Origin: Arenicellales bacterium
GTDB lineage: Bacteria > Pseudomonadota > Gammaproteobacteria > Arenicellales > JBFEOO01
Direction: 5' to 3'
Length of the DNA stretch: 64,000 nt
Assembly: GCA_041550555.1 (NCBI GenBank)
Contig: JBFEOO010000005.1
Location: 14,017-78,016 of the forward strand
The stretch's first letter is position 1, and each line of letters opens with the position of its first letter. The notes under the pieces are model-generated. The model saw only the letters and a list, made by a program, of their open reading frames with translations, was not told where the DNA came from and did no database searches. This document shows positions 15,233-55,620 of the stretch, one piece after another. A program made the position numbers and the translations under genes.

Positions 15233-15265
15233 GCCTCGTGGCCGGGACATCACTCGGGATCCGCA

Positions 15266-39556: not shown

Positions 39557-39724
39557 CGGCGCGTTCTCTTGCCGCACCCGGGTCGGGCACGCATCGCTCG
39601 AGGACTCGAGACGACAGGTTACCATCGGCCGGCGTCCGATGCGCGGCGCCACGGCTAACCTGGAGAGGCTTTGCGTGCGCACCGGCCGGCGCTATAGTCG
39701 CCGCCTTTGCGCACCCTTCCCGAC

Positions 39725-40654: not shown

Positions 40655-40822
40655 ATCGGCGCAACGCCAAGGTCGGCGTGCCGCTTGCGGGCACAGCGGG
40701 GCGCCGGCGCCTGGGGCGCGAAAGGAAATTCTTGTGGGGTGCCGTTTTGCGTTACACTCGCGAGCGGTCGACCCGCCAGCGGACGACCGTGGCGGCGTCA
40801 CTATAATAATCCGAGCACTCCG

Positions 40823-42709
40823 ATGGATACCCTGCTGAGCATACGGGACCTCGAAGTCCAATTTCACATCCACGGCGGCGTGGTGGAAGCGGTCCGCGGC
40901 GTGTCGTTCGACATTCGTCAGGGTGCCACGGTGGCCCTCGTCGGCGAGTCCGGCTCGGGAAAGACCGTGACGGCGCAGGCGATCCAGGGCATCCTCCCCG
41001 AGGTGGCGCGCATCGGAGCCGGGCAGATTCTGCTGCACAATCCGAGCAAGCCCGACAGACCGATCGACATCGCCAAGCTCGAGCGCAACTCGGCGACCAT
41101 GCGCGCCATTCGCGGCGGGCGTATCTCCATGATCTTTCAGGAGCCCATGGTGTCGTTGTCGCCACTGCACACCATCGGTGACCAAATCAGCGAGGCGCTC
41201 TTCCTGCACCGCGAAGTCGGCAAACGCGAGGGCATGGCGCTGACCGTCGAGATGCTGGGCATGGTCGGCTTCCCTCACCCGGATCGGGCGCTGCGGACCT
41301 ATCCCTTCGAGCTCTCGGGCGGGCTCCGTCAGCGCGCCATGATCGCCATGGCCCTCATCTGCCATCCGGCGCTGCTCATCGCCGACGAGCCGACGACGGC
41401 GCTGGACGTGACCATCCAGGCGCAAATACTCAAGCTCATCCTCGATCTGCAGGCGGAGCTCGGGATGGCGGTGCTCATCATTACCCATGACCTCGGGGTC
41501 GTGGCGAACATCGCCGAAGAAGTCGTCGTGCTGTATCACGGCGAAGTGATGGAGAGCGGCACGGCGCAGGACATATTCGCCAACCCGGGACACCCCTACC
41601 TGCAGGCCCTGCTGCGCGCCGTGCCGCACTTCGACATGAAGGACGGTGAGCGGCTGGTGCCCGTGCGCGAGGTGCATAGCGAGGTGGGTGCGTTTCTGTC
41701 CCGGCGCGAGCCCTGGCCGGCGTCGGCCACCGATGACGGCCCGCACCTGGCGGTTCGCCACGTGAACCGCACCTTCGAGATCCGCAAGCGGGGCAGTGGC
41801 GGCGGCGGCGACGCGCGGATCAAGGCAGTCGACGACGTGGAGTTCACGATCCAGCCGGGCGAGTGTTTCGGGCTCGTCGGCGAGAGCGGCTGCGGCAAGA
41901 CGACGCTGGCCAAGATACTGATGCGGGCCATCCGTCCCGACAGCGGCGAGGTGCTCTACAACGATCGTGGCACGATCGTCGACGTGCTGGCCCTCGAGGG
42001 CGATGCCCTCTTGGAGTTCCGAAAGAGGATGCAGTTCATCTTCCAGGACCCGTTCGGCTCGCTCTCCCCCCGCATGACCGTATTCGACATTCTGCGCGAG
42101 CCGCTCATCATCCACGAGATCGGGGACGCGGCATCGCAGGCGCAGACCGCCCAGGACCTCATGCGCGTCGTGGGACTCGACCCCCGCTTCCTCAGCCGCT
42201 ACCCGCACAGCTTCTCGGGCGGACAGCGCCAGCGCATAGGTATTGCCCGCTCGCTTGCGCTTCAGCCCGACCTGCTGATCTGCGACGAGCCGGTTTCGGC
42301 GCTCGACGTCTCCATTCAGGCCCAGATTCTGAACCTGCTCAAGGATCTTCAGGAGCGGCTCGGGCTGACCTACCTCTTCATCTCTCACAACCTCGCGGTG
42401 GTGGATTACGTCGCCGACCGTATCGGGGTGATGTGCCGCGGCCGTCTTGTCGAGACGGCGCCGCGGGAGGTATTGTTTCGTAACCCCGTGCATCCGTACA
42501 CGAGGGCATTGCTGGCAGCGGTGCCATTTCCGGATCTGGACAGGCGCCTCGATTTCGAGTTAGTGATGGAGACGCGCTCCTCGGATCCCGCCGCATGGCC
42601 TGAGCCGTTCACCGTTGTCGACGAGGTTGCGACCGGCATGGTCGACCTCGGTGACGGGCACTCCGTACGCGCCGTCGCCGGGGCACAGCAAGGAGATATT
42701 CCACAATGA
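40823..42709 (+). CDS. ABC transporter ATPase with duplicated NBDs (YejF/GsiA-like, peptide/opine family)
   Basis: It has two Walker A motifs (GESGSGKT and GESGCGKT), two signatures (LSGGLRQR and FSGGQRQR) and two Walker B motifs. The start is taken at [10 protein letters not shown]. Confidence 0.9.
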
Positions 42710-44640
42710 AGCTGAAGGATTATTGCCTGACTGCGGCGGCCGCGCTCGGTCTCGCCGCCGTATCGCTCGTCGGCGCTCCTGCTCTCGCGGTCGCCGACGA
42801 GATCCCCTCGCTCGTCGAGCGGGTCAAGGCGGGCGAGCTGCCCCCGCTCAGCGAGCGCCTCCCCGAGACGCCCCACGTGACCACGCTCGACGGTTCGGAT
42901 CTGAAACCAGGCGAGTACGGCGGCGAGCTGCGCCTTCTGATGGGCAAATCGCGCGACATTCGCATGATGTCCGTGTACGGCTATGCACGTCTGGTGAGGT
43001 ACAACAAAGAGCTCGAGATCGAGCCCGACATCCTCGAGCGTATCGATGTCGAGGACGACCGCGTGTTCACGATGCACCTGCGCAAGGGACACAAGTGGTC
43101 CGACGGACATCCCTTCACCGCCGAAGACTTTCGTTACTACTGGGAGGACGTTGCCAATAACGAAACGCTGTCGCCGTTCGGTCCGGAGCGGGAGCTGTTC
43201 GTCGACGACGAGCCGCCGAAGGTGGAGTTCCTCGACGAACACACCCTGCGCTACTCCTGGTCCAAGCCCAACCCCTATTTTCTGGTGACGCTGGCCGGCG
43301 CCCTGCCCCTTTACATTTACAGGCCGGCTCACTACCTGAAACAGTTTCACGCCAAGTACACCGACGAGGCCAAGCTGGCCGAGCTCGTCGACGAGTCGGG
43401 CTCGCGCAACTGGGCGGGGCTTCACCACCGCTACGACAAGCTCTATCGCTTCGACAATCCCGATCTGCCGGTTTTGCAGCCGTGGCTGAACACCACGGCG
43501 ATGCCCTCGGAGCGCTTCGTGTTCGTGCGCAACCCGTTCTTCCATCGCGTCGATCAGCTGGGGCGCCAGCTACCCTACATAGACACCGTGGTTCTCAACA
43601 TCGCCAGCTCGTCGCTGGTGCCAGCCAAGACCGGCTCTGGAGAATCCGATCTGCAGGCACGCTACCTGAGACTCGACAACTTTCCCTTTCTCAAGGACGG
43701 CGCGGAGCGCAACGACTACGAGGTCCGCCTGTGGCGGCACGTCTCGGGATCGCAGACGGCTCTGTACCCCAACCTCAACAGCGCCGATCCGGTGTGGCGC
43801 GCGCTGGCCCGCGACCCCCGCTTGCGACGCGCGCTCTCCCTTGCCGTAGACCGCAAGGAGATCAATCAGGTGATTTATTTCGGCTCGGTGATCGAGAGCA
43901 ACAACACGGTGCTTCCCGAAAGCCCCCTGTTCAAGCCGAAGTACCAGAAGAACTTCGCGGAGTTCGACCTGGCCAAGGCCAATGCCCTGCTCGACGAGAT
44001 CGGCCTGACGGAGCGCGACGATCGCGGTGTGCGGCTGATGTCCGATGGCCGGCCGCTGGAGATCGTCGTGCAGACCGCCGGCGAGAGCACAGAGGAGAGC
44101 GACATTCTCGAACTGGTGCACGACAGCTGGCTCAAGGCCGGCATCAAGCTCTACACCAAGCCGTCGCAACGCGAGGTGTTCCGCAATCGCGTCTATGCCG
44201 GAGAGGCGATGATGTCGGTATGGAAAGGCGTCGAAAACGGCATTCCGAACGCCAACATGAGCCCGCGGGAGTTCGCCCCCACATCTCAGGAGCAGCTGCA
44301 GTGGCCGAAGTGGGGGCAGTTCTTCGAGACCAAAGGACAGACCGGCGAAGCCCCCGATATTCCGGAGGGTCAGCGTCTCGCCGAGCTGAACGCCGCCTGG
44401 CGGGAGGCCTCCACCCGCGAGCAGAAGGAGACGATCTGGCACGAAATCCTCGATCTGCACGCGGAGCAGATCTTCAGCATCGGCATCGTGTCCGGGGCCC
44501 GGCAACCGGTCGTGGTCAACAAAAATCTGAACAACGTACCCAAGGAAGGCATCTACAACTGGGAGCCTGGGGCGTATTTCGGCATCTATCGCCCGGACAC
44601 GTTCTGGTTCAGCGAACCCCGTCGGTCGTCGAGCGGCTGA
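42706..44640 (+). CDS. periplasmic substrate-binding protein, family 5 (YejA/peptide-type)
   Basis: 644 aa with a signal peptide (AAAALGLAAVSLVGAPALAVA). It has an ATGA overlap with the ATPase gene. Confidence 0.9.
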   Translation: MKLKDYCLTAAAALGLAAVSLVGAPALAVADEIPSLVERVKAGELPPLSERLPETPHVTTLDGSDLKPGEYGGELRLLMGKSRDIRMMSVYGYARLVRYNKELEIEPDILERIDVEDDRVFTMHLRKGHKWSDGHPFTAEDFRYYWEDVANNETLSPFGPERELFVDDEPPKVEFLDEHTLRYSWSKPNPYFLVTLAGALPLYIYRPAHYLKQFHAKYTDEAKLAELVDESGSRNWAGLHHRYDKLYRFDNPDLPVLQPWLNTTAMPSERFVFVRNPFFHRVDQLGRQLPYIDTVVLNIASSSLVPAKTGSGESDLQARYLRLDNFPFLKDGAERNDYEVRLWRHVSGSQTALYPNLNSADPVWRALARDPRLRRALSLAVDRKEINQVIYFGSVIESNNTVLPESPLFKPKYQKNFAEFDLAKANALLDEIGLTERDDRGVRLMSDGRPLEIVVQTAGESTEESDILELVHDSWLKAGIKLYTKPSQREVFRNRVYAGEAMMSVWKGVENGIPNANMSPREFAPTSQEQLQWPKWGQFFETKGQTGEAPDIPEGQRLAELNAAWREASTREQKETIWHEILDLHAEQIFSIGIVSGARQPVVVNKNLNNVPKEGIYNWEPGAYFGIYRPDTFWFSEPRRSSSG

Positions 44641-44673
44641 GCCGCAGGGCACACGGCGAGGGAGTCCGGCACG

Positions 44674-45678
44674 ATGGACATGTTCAGCTACGTCATTCGG
44701 CGTGTGCTGATGATGATACCGACGCTGCTGGCCATCAGCATCATCGTCTTCGTCATCATTCAATTGCCGCCCGGCGACTACCTCGAGAGCCATATCGCCG
44801 AACTGCAGAGCCAGGGTGAATCCGTCGACGAGGCGAAGATTCGATTCCTTCGGCAGCATTACGGTCTCGACAAACCGCTCTATCAGCAGTACCTGTACTG
44901 GCTGTGGGGCATGCTCCACTGGGACTTCGGCTTTTCGTTCGAGTATGACCTGCCGGTGATGGACGTCGTGGGGGACCGCATGTTCCTCACCGTCATCGTC
45001 TCCTTCGTGACCATCATCTTCACGTGGATCGTCGCCTTCCCGATCGGCGTCTACTCCGCGACGCATCAGTACAGCTGGGGCGATTACGGACTCACCTTTC
45101 TGGGCTTCATCGGTCTTGCCACACCGAACTTTCTACTCGCCCTGGTGATGCTCTACCTCGCCAACGTCTACTTCGGCACCTCCATCGGCGGTCTCATGGA
45201 TCCGTCGTACATCGACCAGCCGTGGAGCTGGGACAAGTTCTTGTCGGTCCTCGAGCACCTGTGGATTCCGGTGGTGGTCATCGGCACCTCCGGCACTGCG
45301 GGCATGATCCGTCGGCTCCGCGCCAACCTGCTCGATGAGCTGCAGAAGCAATACGTGATCACGGGGTTGGCCAAGGGGCTGCCGCGCATGAAGCTCCTGG
45401 TCAAGTACCCGCTGCGCATGGCGCTCAATTTCTTCATTGCTGACATCGGCACGATTCTGCCGAGCATCATCTCCGGCGCCGAGATCGTGGCGGTCGTGCT
45501 GTCATTGCCGACCACGGGTCCCATGCTGCTCAGCGCCTTGCAGAGCCAGGACATGTATCTGGCAGGGTCGTTCCTGATGTTCTTGGCATTCCTCACGGTC
45601 GTCGGCGTGCTGGTGTCCGATCTGCTGCTCGCCGCCCTCGATCCCCGCATTCGGCTCCAGGGAGGCGTGACACGTTGA
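44674..45678 (+). CDS. ABC permease (DppB/YejB-like)
   Basis: 334 aa. The N-terminus MFSYVIRRVLMMIPTLLAISIIVFVIIQLPPGD is typical of this family. Confidence 0.9.
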   Translation: MDMFSYVIRRVLMMIPTLLAISIIVFVIIQLPPGDYLESHIAELQSQGESVDEAKIRFLRQHYGLDKPLYQQYLYWLWGMLHWDFGFSFEYDLPVMDVVGDRMFLTVIVSFVTIIFTWIVAFPIGVYSATHQYSWGDYGLTFLGFIGLATPNFLLALVMLYLANVYFGTSIGGLMDPSYIDQPWSWDKFLSVLEHLWIPVVVIGTSGTAGMIRRLRANLLDELQKQYVITGLAKGLPRMKLLVKYPLRMALNFFIADIGTILPSIISGAEIVAVVLSLPTTGPMLLSALQSQDMYLAGSFLMFLAFLTVVGVLVSDLLLAALDPRIRLQGGVTR

Positions 45679-46844
45679 GCACTACGACACCCAAGGCGCC
45701 CCTCGAGCATTTCGTCTCGACGAAGCCCTTCGATCCGCACTCGATCGAGGCGCTGACCCGGGAGCAGGAGCGCTACTACTTCGCGTCGCAGTGGCAGCTG
45801 ATGTGGTGGAAGCTCAAGCACCATCGGCTGGCCGTGGTGTCCGGCCTGGTGCTGCTGGTGATGTACGGCGCCGCCATGCTGAGCGAAGTCGTAGCGCCTT
45901 ACGAGCTGCAGTCCCGCTTCACCGACTACATTTACGCACCGCCTCAACGTCTGCATCTGTTCCACGAGGGACAGTTCATCGGACCGTTCGTGTACGGCTT
46001 CGAGTCGACCTTCGACTTCGAGACCATGAAACGCAAGTACGCCGCGAACACCGCGGACGTGCAGCCGCTGCGGTTCTTCTGCCAAGGAGATCCCTACAAG
46101 TTCTGGGGAGCGTGGCCGGCGCGCTTTCATCTCGTTTGCCCGGCCGAGGACGGCACCTTCTTCCTGCTCGGCACCGATCGCCTCGGCCGCGACATGTTCT
46201 CACGCATCATTCACGGCTCGCGCATCTCGCTCACCATCGGCCTGGTCGGCATCGTCATCAGTTTTGCCCTGGGCGTCGTCATCGGGGGTATCGCCGGCTA
46301 CTACGGTGGGCTGGTCGACACCGTGGTTCAGCGAGTGATCGAGATTCTGCGCTCGTTCCCGGAGCTGCCGCTGTGGATGGCGCTCTCGGCCGTGCTCCCC
46401 GTCAATTGGAGCCCGCTTCTGGTTTTCTTCGGGATTACCGTGATTCTCGCGCTGCTCGACTGGACGGGGCTCGCGCGCGCGGTGCGCTCCAAGCTGCTCG
46501 CGCTCAGGGAAGAGGACTACTGCACGGCGGCGCAGCTGATGGGAGCGCGCCCCCGGCGAATCATCGGCCGCCACCTGCTGCCGGGGTTCATGAGCCACAT
46601 GATCGCCTCGGCCACGCTGTCGATTCCGGCGATGATTCTCGGCGAGACGGCACTGAGCTTTCTTGGGCTCGGCCTGCGACCTCCGATCACCAGCTGGGGT
46701 GTGCTGCTCAACGAGGCTCAGAACATCAACGTCGTTGCGGTCTACCCGTGGCTGATGCTCCCGGTGGTTCCGGTGATTATCGCCATCCTGGCGTTCAACT
46801 TCTTCGGCGACGGGCTGCGCGACGCCGCCGACCCCTACAAGTAA
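45675..46844 (+). CDS. ABC permease (DppC/YejE-like)
   Basis: 389 aa. It has a TTG start overlapping the upstream stop, and contains LLGTDRLGRDMFSRIIHGSRISL. Confidence 0.9.
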   Translation: MSTTTPKAPLEHFVSTKPFDPHSIEALTREQERYYFASQWQLMWWKLKHHRLAVVSGLVLLVMYGAAMLSEVVAPYELQSRFTDYIYAPPQRLHLFHEGQFIGPFVYGFESTFDFETMKRKYAANTADVQPLRFFCQGDPYKFWGAWPARFHLVCPAEDGTFFLLGTDRLGRDMFSRIIHGSRISLTIGLVGIVISFALGVVIGGIAGYYGGLVDTVVQRVIEILRSFPELPLWMALSAVLPVNWSPLLVFFGITVILALLDWTGLARAVRSKLLALREEDYCTAAQLMGARPRRIIGRHLLPGFMSHMIASATLSIPAMILGETALSFLGLGLRPPITSWGVLLNEAQNINVVAVYPWLMLPVVPVIIAILAFNFFGDGLRDAADPYK

Positions 46845-46851
46845 CGCCCCA

Positions 46852-49527
46852 CTACTCCACTTCCAGCAAGCGCTCGAAGCTCGAGCCCGCCCGCGTGACG
46901 TCCTCGCGCGGTCCATGCTCCGCAACCTGGCCCTTTTCGACGACCATAATCGTGTCGAAGCGATTGGCCAGCTCCGGCCTGCCCAGCACCCACAGCAGTC
47001 CCCGCCCCTGCATGTAGCCGATGAGCTGGTCGACCATCCTGTTCTCGGCCGATGGATCGAGACCACCCGTCGCATCGTTGATGATGAGCATATCGGGATC
47101 CTTGATCAGGCAGCGGCCGATGGCGATCTTCTGGCGCTGCGCCAGCGACAGCCGGGCGCCGGCAATGCCGACCTCGTAATCGAGTCCGGCGCGGATGATG
47201 TCCTCGCGCAGATCGAGGGTGTCCACCGTCTCGCGAATGAGCTCGCCTACCCGCGCCTGCGCCTGACCCTGACCGTAGGCCAGCCTGCCAAACAGGATGT
47301 TGTCCTGAATCGAGATCGTCGAGTTGAACCCCTCCGGATCGAAGAAGCGAACCGAGTCGTTGTCCTTCCCGAGCGCTGCGCCCAACGCCTCGCGGGCCTT
47401 GAGCAGCCGCGCCTGGAAGGCATCGTCGATGAGGCCCAGTCGGTGTCGTGCCGGGATGAGCTTGAAGGGCAGCGACAACAACATGTCGCGATCCTCACTG
47501 CTGAGCGCCTCGATGTCATCGGCGCTGGTACGCTTGAGCAGGCTGTGAAACGCCGGCAGGTCGTCCGAGCTGATGAAGCTGAACTGCTCGAAAAGCTCGC
47601 TGTCGGCCGGAACGTCCGCGAACAGATCGAGCATGATCTCGGCCAGCCGCCGGCCCAACTTGATGAAATCGGTGTACAGGTCCGTATCCTTGAGCACCTG
47701 CACCACCTGCGCGTTGGTGGCCAATCGCTCGACATGGAACGAGGGATCGATCGGCGTACCAAAGAGGATGTTCTCGGCAACGGTCATGTTCGTGTTGTAC
47801 TTGTCGCTGTCGAACAGCTCGACCAGCGATGCCATCTTCGGGTCCCGCACCCGGTCGCGCAGCGCCGCGCGCGCCTCCAGTATCCGTGCCGCGAGCTCCG
47901 GCCGGGCGTCGGGATCGACCGTCCCGTACAGCCCCAGGTTGTAGACGTCCTCTTCCATGCCGACCACCTTGAGGATCTTCAGGGACTTGGCGACGAGGCC
48001 CTCGAGATCGTCGACGCCCGCCGACGCGAAATCGATCCAGTTGGCGTTGACGTCGGCATCGGAGTTGGCGGAAGCCCGCGCCTCCTTGACGTAGTGGTCG
48101 CGCTGTTTGGACGCCGCGCCTTCGTAAGCGGGCGAATCCATAGCCCGATGCTTGAGGCCGTAGAAGAGGTTGTCACCCACCGAGCCCGAGAACATGTGCG
48201 CATTCTGGCCAACATAGGCGATGCGTCGACCCGTGATCGCCTCGGGCAGATCCGAGAGGTTCTTCTCGTCGACGGTGATGCGGCCGGCCGTGGGTATCAT
48301 CAGACGCCCGGCCAGCATGGCCAGCTCGCCCTTGCCGCTGCCGGCCAGCCCGACGATGCCGGTGCTGCTGCGCACGTCGCAGCGGAAATTCATGCCGTCG
48401 ATGCTCTTGACGATGTCGTCCTCGCTGTAGACGAGATTGGAGGCGACGAGAGTCCCCGACAGCGGCTCGACGCTTTCCGGGGTCTCATCGAGCAGACGCG
48501 ACGCGAACATGTTCTCCGGCTGGAACTGCTCGATGACCTGCTGGTATTTCACGCGCACGTCTTCGGAGATCTGGTAGAACTTGAGCAACTCCTTCCACGG
48601 ATCGGAGATATCCTTGTACGCCGCCAGCACCGCCACCAGCGCACCGAGAGAGAGACGGCCGTTGATGACAAAATAGCCGCCGATCGAAAAGAAGAAAAAC
48701 GGCGTGACCTGGGCCAGGAAGTTGTTGATAAACTTGATGAAGAATTTTCTCTTGTAGACCTCGTAGCGAATCTCGAAGATCGTGCCGAGCCGGCTGGCGA
48801 CGTCTGCGCGCTCGTACTGGCTCGTGTCCTGCGCATGGATCTCCGTGATACCCGATATGGATTCGCCGATGCGGTCGGCCACCTTGCGCGCCGTTCGCAC
48901 GCGCTCCTTATTGAGCGCGTTCACCCGCATCTGCAGCTTGGGAATGAGCCACATCTGCGGGGGATACAGCGCAACCGCCGCCAGCCCGAGCCAGAAGCTC
49001 TGTGAGAAGATGAAGAACATGTAGGTGATCAGCAGCCCTCCCTGAAAGGCCGGCAGCGAGTACGATTCGCCGATGAAGCCCCCGAGCGGCTCGGTTTCCG
49101 CCATGATCATGGGGATGATTTCGCCCTGGGAGGTGCGCTTGAAGTGCGGCAGCGGGAAGCGCAGGATGCGCGCGTAGAGGTCGTAACGCAGCCGGCGTAG
49201 CATGCGCTCACCGAGCACGCCGCGGTAGACGTTGAGGTAGTACTTGAAGCCGCCGTTGAGGGTGATCAGCCCGAGAAACAAAAAGCTCAGTACCAGCAGG
49301 TAGTCGATCTGGTCGACTTCAAAGCCGAGGATCGCCTCGGGGATGTCCACCCCGCCGATGGCCTTGTTGATGATCGTCTTGGGAATGTCGAGCGAGATAT
49401 AGACGAAAGGCATCGATATCACGGTCAACAACAGAAGAAATAGCTGATCCTTCAGGGTGTACTTCAGGATATAGCGATATATGTTTGGTTCGAGCTTTTC
49501 GTCTTTCATCGTTCCCTGGCCCGCCAC
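46852..49527 (-). CDS. ABC-exporter-like protein: 6-TM domain fused to an expanded, motif-degenerate nucleotide-binding domain
   Basis: 891 aa. The TMD spans about aa 20-330. The NBD motifs are Walker A GLAGSGKG, Q-loop VGQN, signature LSLAQ, Walker B MLIINDA and D-loop GGLD. About 350 aa separate the Q-loop from the signature. Confidence 0.85.
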   Translation of the reverse strand: MAGQGTMKDEKLEPNIYRYILKYTLKDQLFLLLLTVISMPFVYISLDIPKTIINKAIGGVDIPEAILGFEVDQIDYLLVLSFLFLGLITLNGGFKYYLNVYRGVLGERMLRRLRYDLYARILRFPLPHFKRTSQGEIIPMIMAETEPLGGFIGESYSLPAFQGGLLITYMFFIFSQSFWLGLAAVALYPPQMWLIPKLQMRVNALNKERVRTARKVADRIGESISGITEIHAQDTSQYERADVASRLGTIFEIRYEVYKRKFFIKFINNFLAQVTPFFFFSIGGYFVINGRLSLGALVAVLAAYKDISDPWKELLKFYQISEDVRVKYQQVIEQFQPENMFASRLLDETPESVEPLSGTLVASNLVYSEDDIVKSIDGMNFRCDVRSSTGIVGLAGSGKGELAMLAGRLMIPTAGRITVDEKNLSDLPEAITGRRIAYVGQNAHMFSGSVGDNLFYGLKHRAMDSPAYEGAASKQRDHYVKEARASANSDADVNANWIDFASAGVDDLEGLVAKSLKILKVVGMEEDVYNLGLYGTVDPDARPELAARILEARAALRDRVRDPKMASLVELFDSDKYNTNMTVAENILFGTPIDPSFHVERLATNAQVVQVLKDTDLYTDFIKLGRRLAEIMLDLFADVPADSELFEQFSFISSDDLPAFHSLLKRTSADDIEALSSEDRDMLLSLPFKLIPARHRLGLIDDAFQARLLKAREALGAALGKDNDSVRFFDPEGFNSTISIQDNILFGRLAYGQGQAQARVGELIRETVDTLDLREDIIRAGLDYEVGIAGARLSLAQRQKIAIGRCLIKDPDMLIINDATGGLDPSAENRMVDQLIGYMQGRGLLWVLGRPELANRFDTIMVVEKGQVAEHGPREDVTRAGSSFERLLEVE

Positions 49528-49681: not shown

Positions 49682-50917
49682 ATGTCAAGACATCTGGCCA
49701 TCGTTGTCAAAGGGTATCCGCGACTGTCGGAAACCTTCATCGCCCAGGAGATACAGGCCCTCGAGGAACGCGGTCTCACGGCGACGATCATCTCGCTTCG
49801 GCATCCGAGCGATCGCGACGTGCACCCGGTGCATCGCGCCGTCCGTGCGCCGGTCCGCTACTTGCCGGAATACCTCCACGACGAGCCGCGGCGCGTGCTC
49901 GAGGGGTGGCGTCGGGCCCGCCGTCTTCCCGGCTACCGGCGCGCGCGAGCAGTCTGGCTCAAGGACCTGCGCCGCGACCCGACGCGCAACCGGATTCGGC
50001 GCTTCGGTCAGGCGCTCGTGCTGGCGGCCGAGCTGCAGCCGACGGTGCAGGGGCTGCATGCGCATTTTCTCCACACGCCGGCATCGGTGGCCCGTTACGC
50101 GGCGATGCTCACGGGGCTGCCTTGGTCATGCTCGGCCCACGCCAAGGACATCTGGACGACGCCGGAGTGGGAGAAGCGCGAGAAGCTGGCCGACTGTGCC
50201 TTCCTGGTCACGTGTGCGCGTGCCAATGCCGATCATCTGGGCGCACTGTCCACGCGACCGCAAACCATCGGCCTAGTCTACCACGGCGTAGACTTCCATC
50301 GGTTCCCGGCGCCCGACGACGGCCGCTCCGACGCCGATGGCAGGGACCCTGACCACCCCGTGCGGCTGCTCTCCGTCGGGCGCGCGGTGCCCAAGAAGGG
50401 CTACGGCGATCTGCTGGATGCCCTGGCGGCGCTGCCCCCAACGGTCTCCTGGCGGCTCGATCACTTCGGCGGCGGAGCGTTGCTCGACGAGCTGCGGCGT
50501 CGGGCGCAGCGGCTGGGCCTGGCCGAGCGCATCACCTGGCACGGACCGGCCACCCAGCAACGGCTGCTCGATGCCTACCGGTGCGCCGATCTGTTCGTGC
50601 TGGCATCACGCATCGCCGCCGACGGCGACCGCGATGGCTTACCCAACGTCCTGATGGAGGCGCAGAGCCAGAAATTGGTCTGCGTCGCAACCAACGTCTC
50701 GGGCGTGCCGGAGCTGGTGCACGACGGCGTGACCGGCGTGCTCGTGCCCCCGGCGGACAGCCGGGCGTTGGCCCGCGCCCTCGCGGCGCTCATCCGCGAC
50801 CCCGGGCGGCGCGCCGCGCTGGGCCACGCAGGGTTCCGCCGCGTGCGCGCTGAATTCTCGATGGCCGATGGCATCGACGCCCTGGCCGTCCGTCTCGGGC
50901 TGACGCCGCCGACGTGA
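49682..50917 (+). CDS. glycosyltransferase family 4 (GT-B, WcaL-like)
   Basis: 411 aa. It starts HLAIVVKGYPRLSETFIAQEI, and the C-terminal EX7E-type region reads PNVLMEAQSQKLVCVATNVSGVPELV. Confidence 0.85.
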   Translation: MSRHLAIVVKGYPRLSETFIAQEIQALEERGLTATIISLRHPSDRDVHPVHRAVRAPVRYLPEYLHDEPRRVLEGWRRARRLPGYRRARAVWLKDLRRDPTRNRIRRFGQALVLAAELQPTVQGLHAHFLHTPASVARYAAMLTGLPWSCSAHAKDIWTTPEWEKREKLADCAFLVTCARANADHLGALSTRPQTIGLVYHGVDFHRFPAPDDGRSDADGRDPDHPVRLLSVGRAVPKKGYGDLLDALAALPPTVSWRLDHFGGGALLDELRRRAQRLGLAERITWHGPATQQRLLDAYRCADLFVLASRIAADGDRDGLPNVLMEAQSQKLVCVATNVSGVPELVHDGVTGVLVPPADSRALARALAALIRDPGRRAALGHAGFRRVRAEFSMADGIDALAVRLGLTPPT

Positions 50918-52071
50918 ACATCGCCTTCTACGCACCACTCAAGCCGCCGCTGCATCCGAACCCCTCGGGCGACCGGCTGATGGCGCGACTGCTGATGGGC
51001 GCGCTGGCGTCGGCCGGCCACCGCGTCACGCTGGCCGCCCGCCTGCGCACCTGGGACGGCGCCGGGGACACCGTCCGGCAGCGACGCCTGCAACAGCTTG
51101 GCGCGCGCATCGCCGAGCGACTGATCAAGCGCTTTCGCTCGGCCGCCGCCGAGGCGCGGCCGGATATCTGGTTCACCTACCACCTGTACCACAAGGCCCC
51201 GGACTGGATAGGGCCGCTCGTCGCCGATGCGCTCGCCATCCCCTATGTCATCGCGGAGGCCTCCTTCGCCCCCAAGCAGGACGGCGGACGCTGGGCGTCG
51301 GGCCACCGCCAGGCGCGCGCCGCAATTGCGCGCGCCGATGCCGTTGTCGGCCTGAACCGCGCCGACAGCGACTGCCTGCTGCCCCTGCTCGCGGAGCCCG
51401 AGCGGCTCGCTCTGCTGCCCCCGTTTCTCGACACCGCAGCATGCGACCGCCTCGGCGGGGCGCTGACGCGCCGGCAGGCAGCAGCGCGTCTGGGGCTCTC
51501 CCCGGACGTGCCCTGGCTGATTGCCACGGCGCGCATGCGCGCCGGCGACAAGCTGCGCTCGTTCGTCGAGCTCGCCGACGCCCTGCGAGAGATCGTCGAC
51601 AGCGACTGGCGGCTCGTCGTGGTCGGCGATGGCGCGGCCCGGCCGCAGGTGGCGGCGGCCTTCGCCGCGCTTCCGGCCGGTCGCGTCTGCTTCGCCGGCC
51701 AACTCTCGCACGCCGACCTGTTTCCGCTGCTTCGGCAGTGCGATCTCTACGTGTGGCCGGCGGTCAACGAGGCCTACGGCATGGCGCTCATGGAAGCCCA
51801 GGCGTGCGGCTTGCCGGTCGTCGCCGGGTGCACCGGCGGCGTACCGGACGTCGTGGAGCATGACACGTCGGGGCTGCTGGTACCGGTCCACGATACCAGC
51901 CGTTTCGCCGGGGCGGTGCGCGCACTGCTCGACGATCCGCGGCGCCGCGCGCGGCTGGGCCGCCAGGCGCGCGCGCGGATCCGCGGCCGCCACGACATAC
52001 ACGCCGCCGCGGCGCGCCTCGATACCATCCTGAGCGATGCCCGGCGCGTTCACGCCGCGAGGTGCCCGTGA
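50914..52071 (+). CDS. glycosyltransferase family 4 (GT-B)
   Basis: 385 aa with a GTG start overlapping the upstream stop (GTGA). It contains GMALMEAQACGLPVVAGCTGGVPDVV. Confidence 0.85.
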   Translation: MNIAFYAPLKPPLHPNPSGDRLMARLLMGALASAGHRVTLAARLRTWDGAGDTVRQRRLQQLGARIAERLIKRFRSAAAEARPDIWFTYHLYHKAPDWIGPLVADALAIPYVIAEASFAPKQDGGRWASGHRQARAAIARADAVVGLNRADSDCLLPLLAEPERLALLPPFLDTAACDRLGGALTRRQAAARLGLSPDVPWLIATARMRAGDKLRSFVELADALREIVDSDWRLVVVGDGAARPQVAAAFAALPAGRVCFAGQLSHADLFPLLRQCDLYVWPAVNEAYGMALMEAQACGLPVVAGCTGGVPDVVEHDTSGLLVPVHDTSRFAGAVRALLDDPRRRARLGRQARARIRGRHDIHAAAARLDTILSDARRVHAARCP

Positions 52072-52114
52072 CGACGGCTGCGCTGCGCCACTCCCCGGCC
52101 GCCACGGACTGGCG

Positions 52115-52741
52115 GTGAGCTGGATCGCATTCATCCGCCACGGCCCGACGGCCTGGAACGCCGAGGGGCGCATCCAGGGCCGTACCGACGTTCCGTTGAG
52201 CCCCGAGGGACGCGACGAGGTAGCGCGTTGGCGGCTGCCGGACGAGCTCAGCGCGGCGCGCTGCCGGACGAGTCCGCTCGGCCGAGCGCGCGAGACAGCA
52301 GCGCTGCTCGGCTTACACGAGCCCCGGCCCGACGCCGCGTTGATCGAGATGGACTGGGGCACGTGGGAAGGTGCCGTGCTCGGTGAGCTCCGCGTCGCAC
52401 TCGGCGAAGCGATGGCGGCTAACGAGCAGCGCGGCCTCGACTTTCAACCGCCCGGCGGCGAGAGCCCGCGCGCCGTGCGGCGGCGCCTGCGGCGATTCGT
52501 CGCCGCGCGCGCGGCGTCGGACCAGCCGCTGGTGGCCGTTACCCACAAGGGGGTGATTCGGGCGGCATTGAGCCTGGCGACGGCATGGGACATGCGCGCA
52601 AAGCCGCCGTTCAAGCTGCGCTGGGATTGCGCGCACGTCTTCGACATGCAGAACGACGGCACGTTGCTGCTGCGGCGTTTGAACGTGTCGCTGGTGGCTG
52701 GCGGCCGGCGACGCGCGCCGCGCGGGCGCTCGCGGAGCTGA
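52115..52741 (+). CDS. histidine phosphatase family protein (PGM/CobC-like)
   Basis: The catalytic RHG motif is in IAFIRHGPTAWNAEGRIQGRTDVPLS, with a later VTHKGVIRA. The start is uncertain: GTG at 52115 is chosen, and the longest ORF begins at 52037. Confidence 0.8.
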   Translation: MSWIAFIRHGPTAWNAEGRIQGRTDVPLSPEGRDEVARWRLPDELSAARCRTSPLGRARETAALLGLHEPRPDAALIEMDWGTWEGAVLGELRVALGEAMAANEQRGLDFQPPGGESPRAVRRRLRRFVAARAASDQPLVAVTHKGVIRAALSLATAWDMRAKPPFKLRWDCAHVFDMQNDGTLLLRRLNVSLVAGGRRRAPRGRSRS

Positions 52742-52783: not shown

Positions 52784-53950
52784 TCAGCGGCAGGCGAGCC
52801 GGCGAATCAGCTGGGCGCTCCTGGCGGCACCGCCGAGATCGAGGGTCATCGCGGGCCGGGGACGCGCGAGAGCGCGCTCCACCGCTCTCGCGAGGGCGTC
52901 TGCGGACAGCGTGCCCTCGTCGGCGCGCTCGGCCAGCCCCAGGGCCTCGAGACGCTGCGCGCGCAGCAGCTGCTCGGTCTCACCGGGACCCACGAAGGGA
53001 ATCAGCACGGCGCGGGTATCCGCCGCCAGCAGATCCATGACGGTGTTGTAGCCCGCCTGGGATATCGACACGGCGCAGGCCGCGAGCAGCTGTCGAAACT
53101 CGCCGCGCGAGCGGTTGCGCTCGACGATCACCCCGGCGGGCGCCGACTCGCCGAGCGACTGAAACTCCTCCCGGGCGACGTTCGGTCCGACGAGCAAGCG
53201 CCAGCGGGCCTGCCGCAGCGCGCAGCGCGGCCGAGCCGCCAGCGCGCACCGGTACAGGGCACCGCTGGCCGCACCGCCACCGGCGGAGACGATCACCTCA
53301 TCGGCGCCAAGCGCCGGCGTCACCACCGGCTGCGGGGTCGGCTCGACGACGAATCCCGTGTAGACGAGCTTGTCCGCGATCTGTACCGCCTCCGGAAACG
53401 TTTCCTCGAGGCGCGCGAAAGCCGGATCACCGTGTACCAGCACGCGGTCGAAACGCGACGCAACCAGAGCGACGATCTCCGCCCGCCGCGCCGGGTCACG
53501 CTTGATCTGCAGAATGTCGCGAACGGAGCAGGCGACGAGCGGCCGGGGTGTCATCTGCCAGACCGCGTCGAGCAATGGCAGCAGCTCGAAGCGCATCTGG
53601 CGCCGGCCGAACGGGAACATCTCGATGATCAGCACGTCCGGCCGACCGTCGCGCACCACCTCGAGCAGCCGCGCGCGGCGCGACGCGGCGTAGGCGTCGT
53701 CGACGACCTCCCCAGCGCCGGTCAGCAGGCGCGAGAAGTCCGCGCCGTCGCTGCGGATCGGCGGCAGCTGCGTTACCGCTGCGCCCCCGAAGTCGATGTC
53801 GGGCACGGCGACGCCGCCGCAGAGGACTTCGACCTTGTGGCAGGCCGCCGCGAGCGCGCGCGCCAGCACGGCGGCGCGCTGCAGATGACCGACACCGAGC
53901 AGGTGCTGCACATAGAGCATCACCCGCGTCCGCGGAGTGCGGTCGATCAC
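52784..53950 (-). CDS. predicted GT-B glycosyltransferase (GT28/COG4671-like), paralog A
   Basis: 388 aa with an N-terminal LYVQHLLGVGHLQRAAVLARAL and a C-terminal SISQAGYNTVMDLL. It is paralogous to 54146-55411. Confidence 0.7.
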   Translation of the reverse strand: MIDRTPRTRVMLYVQHLLGVGHLQRAAVLARALAAACHKVEVLCGGVAVPDIDFGGAAVTQLPPIRSDGADFSRLLTGAGEVVDDAYAASRRARLLEVVRDGRPDVLIIEMFPFGRRQMRFELLPLLDAVWQMTPRPLVACSVRDILQIKRDPARRAEIVALVASRFDRVLVHGDPAFARLEETFPEAVQIADKLVYTGFVVEPTPQPVVTPALGADEVIVSAGGGAASGALYRCALAARPRCALRQARWRLLVGPNVAREEFQSLGESAPAGVIVERNRSRGEFRQLLAACAVSISQAGYNTVMDLLAADTRAVLIPFVGPGETEQLLRAQRLEALGLAERADEGTLSADALARAVERALARPRPAMTLDLGGAARSAQLIRRLACR

Positions 53951-54145: not shown

Positions 54146-55411
54146 TCACGACAACGCGGTGGCCGAGCTCGGCAGAGATGTCTGTCCGCTGACGCGCGAG
54201 TAGACACGATGATCAATCGCCGGCAGGCCGTCGAGCAGACCGCCGACACGCGCTGCGGAAGGACGCGACTGCGACGGCAGGCTGCGCAGCGCGCGCGCCA
54301 TGACGCCGGCGTCGCGGCCACCGTCGGCGCGCAGCATGCGCACCAGCCCGAGCGCCTCGCCGCGCCGGGCGCGCAGCAGCTGCTCCTGGCGAGGCGTCTC
54401 GCGGGGCACGAGAATGGCCGGCTTGTCGAACGAGATGATCTCGCAGAAGGTGTTGTAGCCACCCATGGCGACCACCCCCGCGGCGTTCGCCACCAGGCTC
54501 TCCATATGGCTGTCGAAGGTGATGGCCTGCACGGCGGGCAGCGCCGCGACGCGGGCGCGGAACTCCTCCTGCAGACCGGCGGCGAGGAAGGGCCCGAAGA
54601 CCACGAGCGCGGGGTACGGAATGTCATCGTGCTGCTCGTAGGCGCGCAGCACCCAGTCGATCACCAGCTCACCGTCGCCACCGCCTCCGGGCGTCACCAG
54701 GAGATACGGCTCCGCGATGCTCACCTCCGGATGCGGCAGCGCTTCGCGTGGGGCGTCGCGCCGCAGATAGCCCGTAAAATGGGTCTTGGCCAGCACCGCA
54801 GCGGGCGCGTCCACGTCGCGCAGCGGGTCGCCCATCTGCGCGATACCGTACACCCAGATCTCGTCGTACAGATCCCGCAGCGCGGGCATGACCTCCTTGT
54901 CCCGCCACTCGCGGCGCAACAGCCGCGGCTCGTCCATGACGTCGCGCAGCCCGAGCACGTTGGTCGTGCCGCGCGACTTGAGCAGCGCGAGCGTTTCGGC
55001 AACCTCTCCCCGCAGGCCCAGCGGCTCCTTGTCGACCAAAAACAGGTGAGGCGCGAATGTCTCGGCCGTGTGCCGAATGATGGAGGTGCGCATGGCCAGC
55101 GTCTGATCCAGGTCGATGTGCAATGCGAGTGACGTGTACTCGCCGTTGTGCAGCTTGATCACGCCGGGAACGCGCACGAAGTCCACGCGCGCCTTGAAAT
55201 CGAAACTGCCTATGATCGGGGAACCGGAGAGAATGAGAACGCTCAATCCTTTGTAGACGTCGACGAGATGGTGAGCAATGGTCCGGCACCGGCGCAGATG
55301 GCCTAGACCAAAGCTGTCATGGCTGTAGACCAGCACCCGCGTGCCGTCCAGGCGATCGATCGCTCCCACCTTAGCCCGCCTCGCGTCCTCGTCAGCGCTC
55401 AGGGTACACAC
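54146..55411 (-). CDS. predicted GT-B glycosyltransferase (GT28/COG4671-like), paralog B
   Basis: 421 aa with VYSHDSFGLGHLRRCRTIAHHL and VVAMGGYNTFCEII. Confidence 0.7.
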   Translation of the reverse strand: MCTLSADEDARRAKVGAIDRLDGTRVLVYSHDSFGLGHLRRCRTIAHHLVDVYKGLSVLILSGSPIIGSFDFKARVDFVRVPGVIKLHNGEYTSLALHIDLDQTLAMRTSIIRHTAETFAPHLFLVDKEPLGLRGEVAETLALLKSRGTTNVLGLRDVMDEPRLLRREWRDKEVMPALRDLYDEIWVYGIAQMGDPLRDVDAPAAVLAKTHFTGYLRRDAPREALPHPEVSIAEPYLLVTPGGGGDGELVIDWVLRAYEQHDDIPYPALVVFGPFLAAGLQEEFRARVAALPAVQAITFDSHMESLVANAAGVVAMGGYNTFCEIISFDKPAILVPRETPRQEQLLRARRGEALGLVRMLRADGGRDAGVMARALRSLPSQSRPSAARVGGLLDGLPAIDHRVYSRVSGQTSLPSSATALS

Positions 55412-55620
55412 TACGCCGGCGGCGGGGCAACCGCCGCTTTGCCCGTGCGTCGCGGGTCACCTCTGGCTCCATTTGTGGGTTACATTGCGGGTCGCCCTGG
55501 CGACAGCGGACCGGCACGTCCCGTCGGGGGCGCGGCGGCCCCGCGGGGAACGTGAAACGTCGGCAACCGGCCGCGCACGGGCCGGCCGGCGGCCGCTCAA
55601 CCGCGAGGAGGCGCAACATC

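What the first reader, a model, noticed from the sequence alone, without database searches (positions are those of the whole stretch)
46852..49527. ABC-exporter-like protein with every catalytic NBD motif degenerate and a ~290-aa insertion containing repeated xNxLFG units
After a normal-looking 6-helix TMD, the NBD departs from consensus at each motif. Walker A is GLAGSGKG, so the Ser/Thr that binds Mg2+ is Gly. The signature is LSLAQ instead of LSGGQ. Walker B is MLIINDA, so the catalytic Glu is Ala. The D-loop is GGLD, and no His is present at the H-loop position (LLWVLGRPEL). The Q-loop (aa ~441) and the signature (aa 793) are ~350 aa apart, compared with the ~60-70 aa that is usual. The intervening sequence contains three copies of the post-Q-loop motif (GDNLFYG aa 451, ENILFG aa 585, DNILFG aa 742). 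This suggests an internal triplication of part of the helical subdomain. If the protein acts as a homodimer, both nucleotide sites would be non-canonical. It may therefore be a nucleotide-sensing or scaffold protein rather than a hydrolysing pump. It is divergently paired with the glycosyltransferase operon.
Basis: seen in the sequence. Interest (0 to 1): 0.6.

Follow-up and report, generated by a model that had tools for sequence, protein, structure and literature searches.

The report
ABC-like protein paired with cNMP sensor
This gene encodes a membrane protein shaped like an ATP-driven exporter whose ATP engine is degenerate and carries three copies of its membrane-coupling module; it belongs to a large uncharacterised bacterial family, present in model rhizobia, that is encoded next to or fused with a cyclic-nucleotide sensor and sugar-transferase genes.

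Summary
ORF 46852-49527(-) encodes a type IV ABC-exporter TMD plus an NBD split by about 296 residues. Two corrections apply. Walker B MLIINDA aligns to ILLLDEA, so Asp becomes Asn and Glu becomes Asp, not Ala. The Q-loop Gln is intact.

The insertion is a genuine triplication of the Q-loop-to-helical-subdomain unit. Unit 2 against unit 3 gives hhalign probability 98.6%, E 7e-16.

This is a large family: at least 582 species genomes, 1142 cluster representatives and 262 rhizobial plasmid or chromid records. None of 63 diverse members has canonical motifs, and rhizobial members lack even the Walker A lysine. All keep the three xNxL(F/Y)G units, and the TMD is the best-conserved part.

It is present in 69/81 loci, immediately downstream in 50, and fused in many. 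Here it lies at 58107-58577. Four glycosyltransferases, a phosphatase, an Opp/Yej-type importer and often a cyclase are co-conserved.

My best reading (inference) is a cNMP-controlled, hydrolysis-independent translocator or gate for the cluster's glycoconjugate. No experiment or paper on it was found.

The parts
46852..49527 (-). ABC-exporter-like protein ('ABCx'), 891 aa from GTG 49527; probable true start is ATG 49509
48508..49527 (-). Residues 1-340: six-helix type IV exporter TMD. This is the most conserved part of the protein (39% of columns >=90% conserved)
48256..48507 (-). Residues 341-424: NBD N-terminal core with degenerate Walker A GLAGSGKG (393-400)
47902..48255 (-). Residues 425-542: repeat unit 1. 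Contains the Q-loop strand (Q441), GDNLFYG (451-457), helices and 'NLGL' (530-533)
47419..47901 (-). Residues 543-703: repeat unit 2. Contains ARILEAR..LVELFD..ENILFG (585-590) and helices. Inserted copy plus about 80 extra helical residues
47158..47418 (-). Residues 704-790: repeat unit 3. Contains ARLLKAR..VRFFD..DNILFG (742-747). It runs directly into the signature motif with canonical spacing
46855..47157 (-). Residues 791-891: NBD C-terminal part. Signature LSLAQ (793), Walker B MLIIN817-D818, D-loop GGLD (821-824), H-loop position G849
49682..50917 (+). GT4 glycosyltransferase 'GT4a', divergent from ABCx. Homologue of R. etli RedB (55% id). Present in 75/81 loci
50914..52071 (+). Second GT4 glycosyltransferase 'GT4b'. 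Present in 63/81 loci, absent in Rhizobiaceae
52037..52741 (+). Histidine-phosphatase superfamily protein (His_Phos_1). Present in 55/81 loci
52784..53950 (-). Glyco_tran_28_C-like glycosyltransferase 'GT28a'. Present in 53/81 loci and in rhizobia
54146..55411 (-). Glyco_tran_28_C-like glycosyltransferase 'GT28b'. Homologue of R. etli RedA (53% id). Present in 64/81 loci
55552..57015 (+). Membrane-bound class III adenylate/guanylate cyclase, with about 5-6 hydrophobic N-terminal segments and a catalytic domain at 287-467
57047..57790 (-). orf247, no family match. Co-occurs with the cyclase and CNB gene in about 10 gamma/beta loci. An H..HD-like motif is visible by eye only
58107..58577 (-). 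Stand-alone cNMP-binding protein (156 aa) with the canonical phosphate-binding cassette GEMAVLSNAPRSA. It is the conserved partner of ABCx, adjacent or fused to it in other genomes
40685..46844 (+). Opp/Yej-type ABC importer, convergent with ABCx. Fused double-NBD ATPase (40685-42709), SBP_bac_5 (42706-44640) and two permeases (44674-45678, 45675-46844). Linked to ABCx in different gene orders in alpha, beta and gamma lineages

Best explanation
ABCx is a member of a large, unnamed family of type IV ABC-exporter-fold proteins. In this family the nucleotide-binding domain no longer works as a canonical ATPase.

**Shown**
- The Q-loop-to-helical-subdomain unit is triplicated. From my own knowledge of CFTR NBD1 (TIKENIIFG), this unit carries the motif that contains F508 and docks the TMD coupling helix.
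- Across the family the catalytic positions are non-canonical or drifting, while the TMD, the intracellular loops and the three xNxL(F/Y)G units are conserved.
- The protein is encoded with, and in many genomes fused at its C-terminus to, a cNMP-binding domain with an intact phosphate-binding cassette.
- The pair is co-conserved with three or four glycosyltransferases, often a histidine phosphatase, an Opp/Yej-type importer and, in several lineages, a class III cyclase.

**Inferred mechanism**
- A homodimer of ABCx forms an ATP-hydrolysis-independent conduit or flippase for the glycoconjugate built by the neighbouring GTs.
- The remodelled NBD, with its three coupling-type units, serves as the docking and regulatory platform.
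- The CNB protein binds cAMP or cGMP made by the cyclase and switches ABCx between states through that platform.
- The importer retrieves or exchanges the periplasmic product.
For: **Fold**
- ABC_membrane plus split ABC_tran. AF2 mean pLDDT is 84.4, mostly >90 across residues 360-890. Foldseek matches P-gp, TM287/288, TmrAB and MsbA.

**Triplication**
- unit 2 vs unit 3 scores 91 (probability 98.6%, E 6.9e-16, 77 columns).
- Unit 1 vs unit 3 scores 28.9, and unit 1 vs unit 2 scores 26.6. Shuffled-column maxima are 18-19.4.
- Units 1 and 3 both align to the same canonical post-Q-loop region in different NCBIfam models.

**Degeneracy**
- 0/63 diverse representatives are canonical.
- K399 is K in 182/263, Q441 is Q in 83/263, H849 is H in 62/263.
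- R. etli has GSGAE and S. meliloti has GGGGE with no Lys, FIFNR / VFNQ at Walker B, and no Q or H. All three repeat motifs are kept.

**Conservation profile**
- TMD has 39% of columns >=0.9, against 11-19% in the NBD parts.

**CNB link**
- a CNB gene is present in 69/81 loci, immediately downstream in 50 with a median gap of 32 bp.
- The PBC is conserved: G 68/69, E 68/69, R 69/69, A 68/69.
- Fusions. All 9 long representatives tested carry a C-terminal cNMP_binding domain. 22 of 62 full-length representatives are >=1000 aa.

**Cluster**
- GT4a 75, GT28b 64, GT4b 63, His_Phos 55, GT28a 53 and importer ATPase 50 of 81 loci.
- The same core forms a co-directional array in R. etli pA and S. meliloti pSymB.

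**Cyclases**
- Different, non-orthologous cyclases are attached in gamma/beta and rhizobial clusters.

**No partner**
- No second half-transporter gene nearby in 0/81 loci.
Against: - No experiment of any kind supports transport, the substrate, cNMP binding or an ABCx-CNB contact. All of these are inferred from sequence, synteny and fusions.
- The modal family state (GK[D/E] with hhhhN-E; covariation odds ratio 5.5) looks like an ordered alternative Mg-nucleotide site rather than decay. Many members, though probably not this one, may still bind or even hydrolyse ATP.
- In this window the CNB gene is 8.6 kb from ABCx, and 11/81 loci show no CNB gene within the flank.
- The GT product is unknown, and no priming transferase, Wzx/Wzy or outer-membrane export gene was seen.
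- I had no model coordinates, so I could not check where the extra units sit or whether NBD dimerisation remains possible.
Confidence: 0.45

Rival explanations
1. ABCx is still an ATP-driven exporter. The family uses a charge-swapped Mg2+ site (Walker A Ser/Thr -> Asp/Glu, Walker B Asp -> Asn) and exports the GT product by ordinary alternating access. The insertion and CNB only modulate this cycle.
For: -: the modal pattern K-[D/E]...N-E occurs in 84/263.
- [D/E]400 goes with N817 (138 vs 20), while [S/T]400 splits 20 vs 16 (Fisher p 5e-5).
- The P-loop glycines are invariant among close homologues.
- D-loop Asp is present in 230/263 and the signature Q in 199/263.
Against: - The window protein has neither ligand (G400, N817), and also has D818 and G849.
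- Rhizobial members lack the Walker A Lys, the Q-loop Gln, the catalytic Glu and the H-loop His.
- Q-loop and H-loop positions are highly variable.
- The NBD is less conserved than the TMD.
- The covariation is not corrected for phylogeny.
Confidence: 0.2
2. ABCx does not transport anything. It is a membrane-anchored sensor or scaffold. The TMD anchors or senses, and the enlarged pseudo-NBD organises the peripheral GTs and the CNB protein into a cNMP-controlled biosynthetic complex.
For: - The GTs have no predicted TM segments, yet RedA is annotated 'membrane-anchored'.
- The catalytic motifs are degenerate.
- There are three copies of a unit that normally docks a partner helix.
- Fusions to CNB, and to CNB-GGDEF signalling domains, occur.
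Against: - The full six-helix exporter TMD, the ICL1 region and TM6 are the most conserved parts. That fits a conserved translocation pathway and TMD-NBD coupling better than a mere anchor.
- An importer is co-conserved, which suggests a periplasmic product.
Confidence: 0.2
3. ABCx is the degenerate half of a heterodimeric exporter whose canonical partner is encoded elsewhere in the genome.
For: Heterodimeric exporters with one degenerate site are well known, for example TM287/288 and TmrAB, which are among the structural matches. Only 64 kb of this genome could be inspected.
Against: - No second type IV TMD gene within +-10 kb in any of 81 loci, and none in the window. Known heterodimer pairs are normally adjacent.
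- Walker A/B, H-loop and the signature are all degenerate in one chain, so both composite sites would be impaired even with a canonical partner.
Confidence: 0.07
4. The cyclase, the CNB protein and the membrane protein form a Pycsar-like anti-phage module in which ABCx is a cNMP-activated membrane-disrupting effector.
For: The CNB protein matches the CNB domains of Pycsar effectors in PADLOC. A cyclase is in the cluster.
Against: - The PADLOC matches are generic CNB-domain matches. ABCx has only a weak generic ATPase hit.
- The family is inherited with housekeeping-like GT and importer genes across Alpha-, Beta- and Gammaproteobacteria. It is fixed on rhizobial chromids at 99-100% identity across most of the listed S. 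meliloti strains, unlike patchy defence islands.
- The cyclases are non-orthologous and often absent from the locus.
Confidence: 0.03

Closest known systems
MsbA / ABCB-type homodimeric half-transporters (type IV ABC exporters)
   Same: Same TMD-NBD order, six-helix ABC_membrane domain and overall fold. MsbA is the best NCBIfam match (TIGR02203, E 8.5e-52). Foldseek matches MsbA, TmrAB, TM287/288 and P-gp.
   Different: - Scores are far below every equivalog cut-off (176 vs 602 bits).
- Catalytic motifs are non-canonical family-wide.
- About 296 extra residues, made of two additional Q-loop/helical-subdomain units.
- The TMD is more conserved than the NBD.
- An obligate CNB partner.
CFTR (ABCC7)
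   Same: An ABC-exporter fold used as a gated conduit rather than a pump, with degenerate nucleotide-site elements and control by cyclic nucleotide signalling. The repeated motif here (ENILFG / DNILFG) is the counterpart of CFTR ENIIFG, which contains F508. This correspondence comes from my own knowledge of the CFTR sequence and was not tested with a tool.
   Different: - CFTR keeps one competent ATP site and is controlled indirectly, by PKA phosphorylation of the R domain.
- Here all motifs in a single chain are altered, control would be by direct cNMP binding to a CNB domain, and the helical-subdomain unit is triplicated.
- No evidence of channel activity here.
HetC of Nostoc PCC 7120 (CNB-domain-containing PCAT ABC exporter; PMC10986499)
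   Same: An ABC exporter physically joined to a cNMP-binding-type domain that is required for function.
   Different: - HetC's CNB domain is N-terminal, binds ppGpp in vitro, and is accompanied by a C39 peptidase.
- Its ATPase catalytic residue is essential.
- Here the CNB is C-terminal or separate with a canonical cNMP cassette, and the ATPase is degenerate.
SbmA/BacA (ABC-exporter-fold TMD without NBD)
   Same: A precedent, recalled from my own knowledge, that a type IV exporter-fold TMD can work without ATP hydrolysis.
   Different: SbmA lacks an NBD altogether, whereas ABCx keeps and enlarges it. No SbmA_BacA Pfam match was found.
Rad50/SMC and UvrA (ABC ATPases with large insertions between Walker A/Q-loop and the signature)
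   Same: The insertion sits at the same topological position of the ABC fold, after the Q-loop and before the signature (own knowledge).
   Different: - Those insertions are coiled coils or DNA/UvrB-binding domains in soluble, catalytically active ATPases.
- Here the insertion is made of duplicated helical-subdomain units in a membrane exporter-fold protein.
- The insertion-only model has no significant structural match in the PDB.

Membership tests
Type IV ABC exporter (ABCB/MsbA-like half-transporter) | N-terminal six-helix ABC_membrane TMD followed by an ABC NBD | tested here: met
   Pfam ABC_membrane E 2.6e-21 and ABC_tran E 8.2e-15. The AF2 model matches P-gp, TM287/288, TmrAB and MsbA.
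Type IV ABC exporter (ABCB/MsbA-like half-transporter) | Canonical catalytic motifs: GxxGxGK[ST], Q-loop Q, LSGGQ, hhhhDE, H-loop H | tested here: not met
   The window protein has GLAGSGKG, LSLAQ, MLIIND and G849. 0/63 diverse members are fully canonical. Rhizobial members lack the Walker A Lys.
Type IV ABC exporter (ABCB/MsbA-like half-transporter) | About 60-70 residues between Q-loop and signature (a single helical subdomain) | tested here: not met
   Q441 to L793 is 352 residues, a net insertion of about 296 relative to ABCB4. There are three repeat units.
Type IV ABC exporter (ABCB/MsbA-like half-transporter) | ATP hydrolysis drives transport | not testable with these tools
   Needs ATPase and transport assays.
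MsbA (NCBIfam TIGR02203 equivalog) or any other named exporter equivalog | Score above the curated cut-off | tested here: not met
   Best score is 176.4 bits against a cut-off of 602. All 25 listed models are far below their cut-offs.
Heterodimeric ABC exporters with one degenerate site (TM287/288, TmrAB, BmrCD type) | Adjacent gene for a second half-transporter supplying a consensus site | tested here: not met
   No second type IV TMD gene in the window or within +-10 kb in 0/81 loci.
Heterodimeric ABC exporters with one degenerate site (TM287/288, TmrAB, BmrCD type) | Degeneracy confined to Walker B/H-loop of one chain and the signature of the other | tested here: not met
   Walker A, Walker B, H-loop and signature are all altered in the same chain.
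CNB-domain ABC exporters of the HetC / NHLP type | N-terminal CNB-like domain (with or without a C39 peptidase) on a catalytically active exporter | tested here: not met
   The CNB is C-terminal in the fusions or a separate gene. There is no peptidase domain and the NBD is degenerate. HetC features are from PMC10986499.
cNMP_binding (PF00027) domain proteins (for the partner at 58107-58577) | Pfam match above threshold and an intact phosphate-binding cassette G-E-x-A...R-[ST]-A | tested here: met
   PF00027 E 7.1e-20. PBC GEMAVLSNAPRSA, with G 68/69, E 68/69, R 69/69, T/S 58/69 and A 68/69.
cNMP_binding (PF00027) domain proteins (for the partner at 58107-58577) | Binds cAMP or cGMP | not testable with these tools
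   Needs ITC or another binding assay.
Pycsar-type defence system | Dedicated pyrimidine cyclase plus CNB-effector pair with a patchy, island-like distribution | tested here: not met
   Only generic CNB matches in PADLOC. The family shows conserved synteny with GT and importer genes across classes and is fixed on rhizobial chromids. The cyclases are non-orthologous.

The most novel reading that the evidence does not exclude
The family is a new functional class of ABC-fold membrane proteins: cyclic-nucleotide-gated, ATP-hydrolysis-independent translocators or channels. The NBD would have been converted, by triplication of the F508-type coupling unit, into a receiver that transmits cAMP/cGMP binding by a CNB domain to the transmembrane gate. 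This would be a bacterial, directly ligand-gated counterpart of the logic seen in CFTR. It would control the release or flipping of a so far unidentified glycoconjugate in rhizobia, Azospirillum and many environmental Proteobacteria.
Probability: 0.25. Interest if true: 0.85.

Novelty: new variant of a known kind. Interest (0 to 1): 0.7.

Why it matters
- ABC exporters are defined by their conserved ATPase. This family is large and vertically conserved: at least 582 species genomes and 1142 clusters at 50% identity. It keeps the exporter TMD under strong constraint while letting the catalytic motifs go, multiplying the coupling unit threefold and tying itself to a cNMP sensor. That is an unusual natural experiment on what the NBD is for.
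- It would add a direct cNMP effector other than transcription factors and channels to bacterial cAMP/cGMP signalling. That question is open in rhizobia, which encode many cyclases but have few known cNMP receptors.
- The family sits on S. meliloti pSymB and on R. etli and R. leguminosarum plasmids, next to genes named redA/redB. The hypothesis is therefore directly testable in genetically tractable organisms, and it may reveal an unknown surface or periplasmic glycoconjugate relevant to plant association.

Tried and rejected
**Searches and analyses that gave nothing**
- Exact look-up of the window protein in public assemblies: not on record.
- BLASTP self-comparison found no internal repeat. 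The repeat became visible only with family profiles.
- Foldseek of the insertion-only model against the PDB: nothing below E = 1.
- hmmsearch of the insertion profile against PDB sequences: nothing meaningful. The insertion fold therefore has no recognisable solved relative, apart from its internal similarity to the helical-subdomain unit.
- orf247 (57047-57790) gave no hit in Pfam, NCBIfam or PDB sequences. The HD-like motif is my reading only.
- Rfam, tRNA, and promoter/terminator scans found nothing relevant.
- Cluster look-up gave no organism names.

**Literature**
- Searches on CNB-ABC, degenerate/pseudo-ATPase exporters, redA/redB, and S. meliloti cyclases and Clr found no paper on this family or cluster.
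- Family 16 of Kannan et al. 2007 is a different CNB-ATPase group with a variable PBC Arg.
- PLSDB carries no annotation for S. meliloti 1021 or 2011 pSymB. I could not obtain SMb locus tags or decide whether the cluster's cyclase is one of the named cya genes.

**Ideas rejected**
- Pseudogene or assembly artefact: the ORF is intact, conserved over its full length and present in more than 1000 clusters.
- GDPD at 39707 as part of the system: it is not conserved in the 81 loci.


Full report
**1. Observation.**

The ORF lies exactly at 46852..49527 on the minus strand and encodes 891 aa from a GTG. An ATG at 49509, preceded by AGGGAA, is where homologues begin and is the likelier start.

Pfam finds ABC_membrane at 71-301. 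ABC_tran matches in two stretches, the best at 377-485. NCBIfam models and PDB sequences align the C-terminal part at about 739-889.

Residue-level alignment to ABCB4 and ABCB19 confirms:
- Walker A GLAGSGKG, with Ser/Thr replaced by Gly400.
- Signature LSLAQ.
- D-loop GGLD.
- Gly849 at the H-loop His position.

MLIINDA aligns to ILLLDEA, so Asp becomes Asn817 and Glu becomes Asp818. The Q-loop Gln441 is present.

Query residues 465-782 span only residues 501-522 of ABCB4, which gives a net insertion of about 296 residues. GDNLFYG (451), ENILFG (585) and DNILFG (742) are all there.

**2. It is a family, not an oddity.**

- A word-indexed search returned at least 120 full-length homologues of about 880 aa at 52-73% identity.
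- A scan of one genome per species found at least 582 genomes with a relative. These include Azospirillum, Thalassobaculum, Nisaea and many alpha-, beta- and gammaproteobacterial MAGs.
- A profile of the insertion alone found 1142 cluster representatives in 1.84 billion proteins. The match always falls at about residues 455-735 of ABC-like proteins.
- tblastn found 262 plasmid or chromid records, mostly Rhizobium and Sinorhizobium.
- No Pfam or NCBIfam model is specific for the family, and the best equivalog scores are far below cut-off.

**3. The insertion is a triplicated coupling unit.**

Family profiles show that residues 546-626 are homologous to 705-782. The hhalign probability is 98.6%, E 6.9e-16, score 91, over 77 columns (first seen).

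Unit 1 (418-542) aligns more weakly to unit 3 (score 28.9, 68 columns) and to unit 2 (score 26.6). Column-shuffled controls never exceeded 19.4.

Units 1 and 3 each align to the same canonical post-Q-loop segment in different NCBIfam exporter models.

Each unit reads as: helix (ARxLxAR) - strand (LVExFD) - xNxLFG - helices - D(I/V/F)xxLG. Unit 3 runs into the signature motif with canonical spacing.

The motif is the counterpart of CFTR's ENIIFG, which contains F508, the residue that docks the TMD coupling helix. This comes from my knowledge of the CFTR sequence and is not a tool result.

E585, N586, F589, G590, N743, L745, F746 and G747 are invariant in 90 homologues.

AF2 predicts the whole NBD plus insertion with pLDDT mostly above 90, and the insertion is mostly helical. 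The full model matches type IV exporters. The insertion alone (pLDDT 80) has no significant PDB match, and its profile finds nothing in PDB sequences.

**4. The nucleotide site.**

Frequencies in 263 family sequences:

| Position | Residue counts |
|---|---|
| Walker A Lys (399) | K 182, R 50, other 31 |
| Walker A Ser/Thr (400) | D 123, E 60, S/T 37 |
| Walker B Asp (817) | N 185, D 44 |
| Catalytic Glu (818) | E 153, D 50 |
| Q-loop (441) | Q 83 |
| H-loop (849) | H 62 |

None of 63 diverse representatives is fully canonical.

R. etli and S. meliloti proteins have GSGAE and GGGGE (no lysine) and FIFNR / VFNQ at Walker B, with no Q-loop Gln or H-loop His. All three repeat motifs are intact in both.

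The TMD is the best-conserved region. It has 39% of columns at >=90% conservation, against 11-19% for the NBD parts. This is the opposite of ordinary ABC exporters.

One caveat applies. [D/E]400 covaries with N817 (138:20, against 20:16 for S/T; odds ratio 5.5, p 5e-5, not phylogeny-corrected). That pattern reads like a swap of the two Mg2+ ligands, so part of the family may keep a non-canonical nucleotide site. The window protein (G400, N817, D818, G849) lacks both ligands.

**5. Context: a conserved cluster with a cNMP sensor.**

Counts across 81 related loci:

| Neighbour | Loci (of 81) |
|---|---|
| GT4a | 75 |
| GT28b | 64 |
| GT4b | 63 |
| His_Phos_1 | 55 |
| GT28a | 53 |
| Opp/Yej-type importer ATPase | 50 |

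An unbiased tally revealed a 156-aa ORF (window 58107-58577, minus strand) with homologues in 69/81 loci. It is a stand-alone cNMP_binding protein (PF00027, E 7e-20).

- It lies immediately downstream of ABCx on the same strand in 50 loci, with a median gap of 32 bp.
- It is elsewhere in the locus in gamma/beta layouts like this window.
- It is fused to the C-terminus of ABCx in L054, L061 and L079.
- All nine long representatives tested carry the C-terminal CNB domain, and two also carry GGDEF.
- 22 of 62 full-length representatives are >=1000 aa.

Its phosphate-binding cassette is canonical and nearly invariant: G 68/69, E 68/69, R 69/69, T/S 58/69, A 68/69.

In the window, a membrane-bound class III cyclase (55552-57015) and an unassigned orf247 lie between the GT genes and the CNB gene.

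**6. Model organisms.**

R. etli CIAT 652 plasmid pA carries a co-directional array:
- cyaAa (adenylate cyclase)
- four importer genes
- redA ('membrane-anchored protein', the GT28b homologue)
- redB (the GT4a homologue)
- a GT (the GT28a homologue)
- ABCx ('putative multidrug ABC transporter')
- a 155-aa 'transcriptional regulator' (the CNB homologue, 40% identity)

S. meliloti pSymB has the same array. The gene is 99-100% identical in most of the S. meliloti pSymB records listed.

The cyclases of the window and of R. etli share only the catalytic domain, at 29% identity. Different cyclases were therefore recruited independently.

I found no paper on the cluster, on redA/redB in Rhizobium, or on the ABC family.

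**7. Most likely mechanism.**

Shown:
- Exporter fold.
- Non-canonical ATP site.
- Triplicated coupling unit.
- Strong TMD constraint.
- Genomic and physical (fusion) coupling to a CNB domain with an intact cNMP cassette.
- Co-inheritance with GTs and an importer.

Inferred:
- ABCx homodimers provide a hydrolysis-independent pathway for the GT product. No partner gene was found in 0/81 loci.
- The enlarged pseudo-NBD is the platform through which the cNMP-loaded CNB domain controls the TMD.
- The cyclase supplies the signal.
- The importer recovers or exchanges the periplasmic product.

I put this at about 0.45.

Rivals:
- A still-active pump with a charge-swapped site: 0.2.
- A non-transporting scaffold or sensor: 0.2.
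- A distant heterodimer partner: 0.07.
- A Pycsar-like effector: 0.03.

**8. Comparison with what is known.**

By fold and ancestry the protein is a type IV ABC exporter relative. It fails three defining features: canonical catalytic motifs, a single helical subdomain, and any named equivalog threshold.

- It resembles CFTR in logic (an exporter fold used as a regulated conduit under cyclic-nucleotide control), but the means differ.
- It resembles HetC in having a CNB domain, but the position, the ligand and the ATPase status differ.
- It resembles SbmA/BacA in possibly working without ATP.
- It resembles Rad50/SMC and UvrA only in where the ABC fold is interrupted.

I rate it a new variant of a known kind.

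**9. Limits.**

- Everything functional is inference.
- I had no model coordinates and no multimer prediction.
- The product of the GTs is unknown.
- The covariation test ignores phylogeny.

Noticed in passing
window 14699-17248 (+): An 849-aa ORF with an AAA_15/AAA_21 C-terminal match. It gives weak partial PADLOC hits to AriA, Old, GajA and PtuA, so it may be an OLD-family-like defence ATPase. Neighbouring ORFs gave no PADLOC hit.
   Followed up: partly
window 35989-38583 (+): An 864-aa PAS-GGDEF-EAL protein (c-di-GMP turnover), a few kb from the importer operon.
   Followed up: no
window 39707-40654 (+): A glycerophosphodiester phosphodiesterase (GDPD) lies directly upstream of the importer ATPase. 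It is not conserved next to the cluster in the 81 related loci.
   Followed up: partly
window 49509 vs 49527 (-): The maximal ORF starts at GTG 49527. An ATG at 49509 (M7) has AGGGAA just upstream and coincides with where homologues start, so the protein is probably 885 aa.
   Followed up: yes
L084 (S. meliloti 1021 pSymB NC_003078.1 841720-844405) vs L085 (strain 2011) and L083 (R14): The 1021 reference sequence has a 1-nt indel inside the ABCx homologue relative to 2011 and R14. This is either a frameshift in the lab strain or an error in the 2001 sequence. It matters for choosing a strain for genetics.
   Followed up: partly
L079 9971-13636; protein P0202: Triple fusions ABCx-CNB-GGDEF (1221 and 1206 aa) link the family to c-di-GMP-type domains as well.
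   Followed up: partly
L008 3109-4409 and 13205-13768; L007; L033: Alphaproteobacterial clusters carry further conserved genes absent from the window. One is about 258 aa with no family match (41 loci). One is about 170 aa with one TM segment (38 loci). One is a Methyltransf_17 protein after the CNB gene (34 loci).
   Followed up: partly
family alignment positions 400 and 817 (window residues G400, N817): Walker A Ser/Thr -> Asp/Glu covaries with Walker B Asp -> Asn across 263 sequences (odds ratio 5.5). This is a possible swap of the Mg2+ ligands, for which I know no precedent in ABC NBDs.
   Followed up: partly
window 55552-57015 (+) vs L082 2650-3993: The cluster-associated cyclases of the window (about 5-6 TM N-terminus) and of R. 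etli (cyaAa) share only the catalytic domain (29% id). This implies independent recruitment of cyclases to the cluster.
   Followed up: yes
window 46915-49005 (+): A 696-aa antisense ORF inside ABCx appears 'conserved' in 31 loci. It has no independent support and is most simply the shadow of the ABCx frame in high-GC DNA.
   Followed up: yes
window 58771-59613 (-): A MobB (molybdopterin-guanine dinucleotide biosynthesis) homologue lies just beyond the CNB gene.
   Followed up: no
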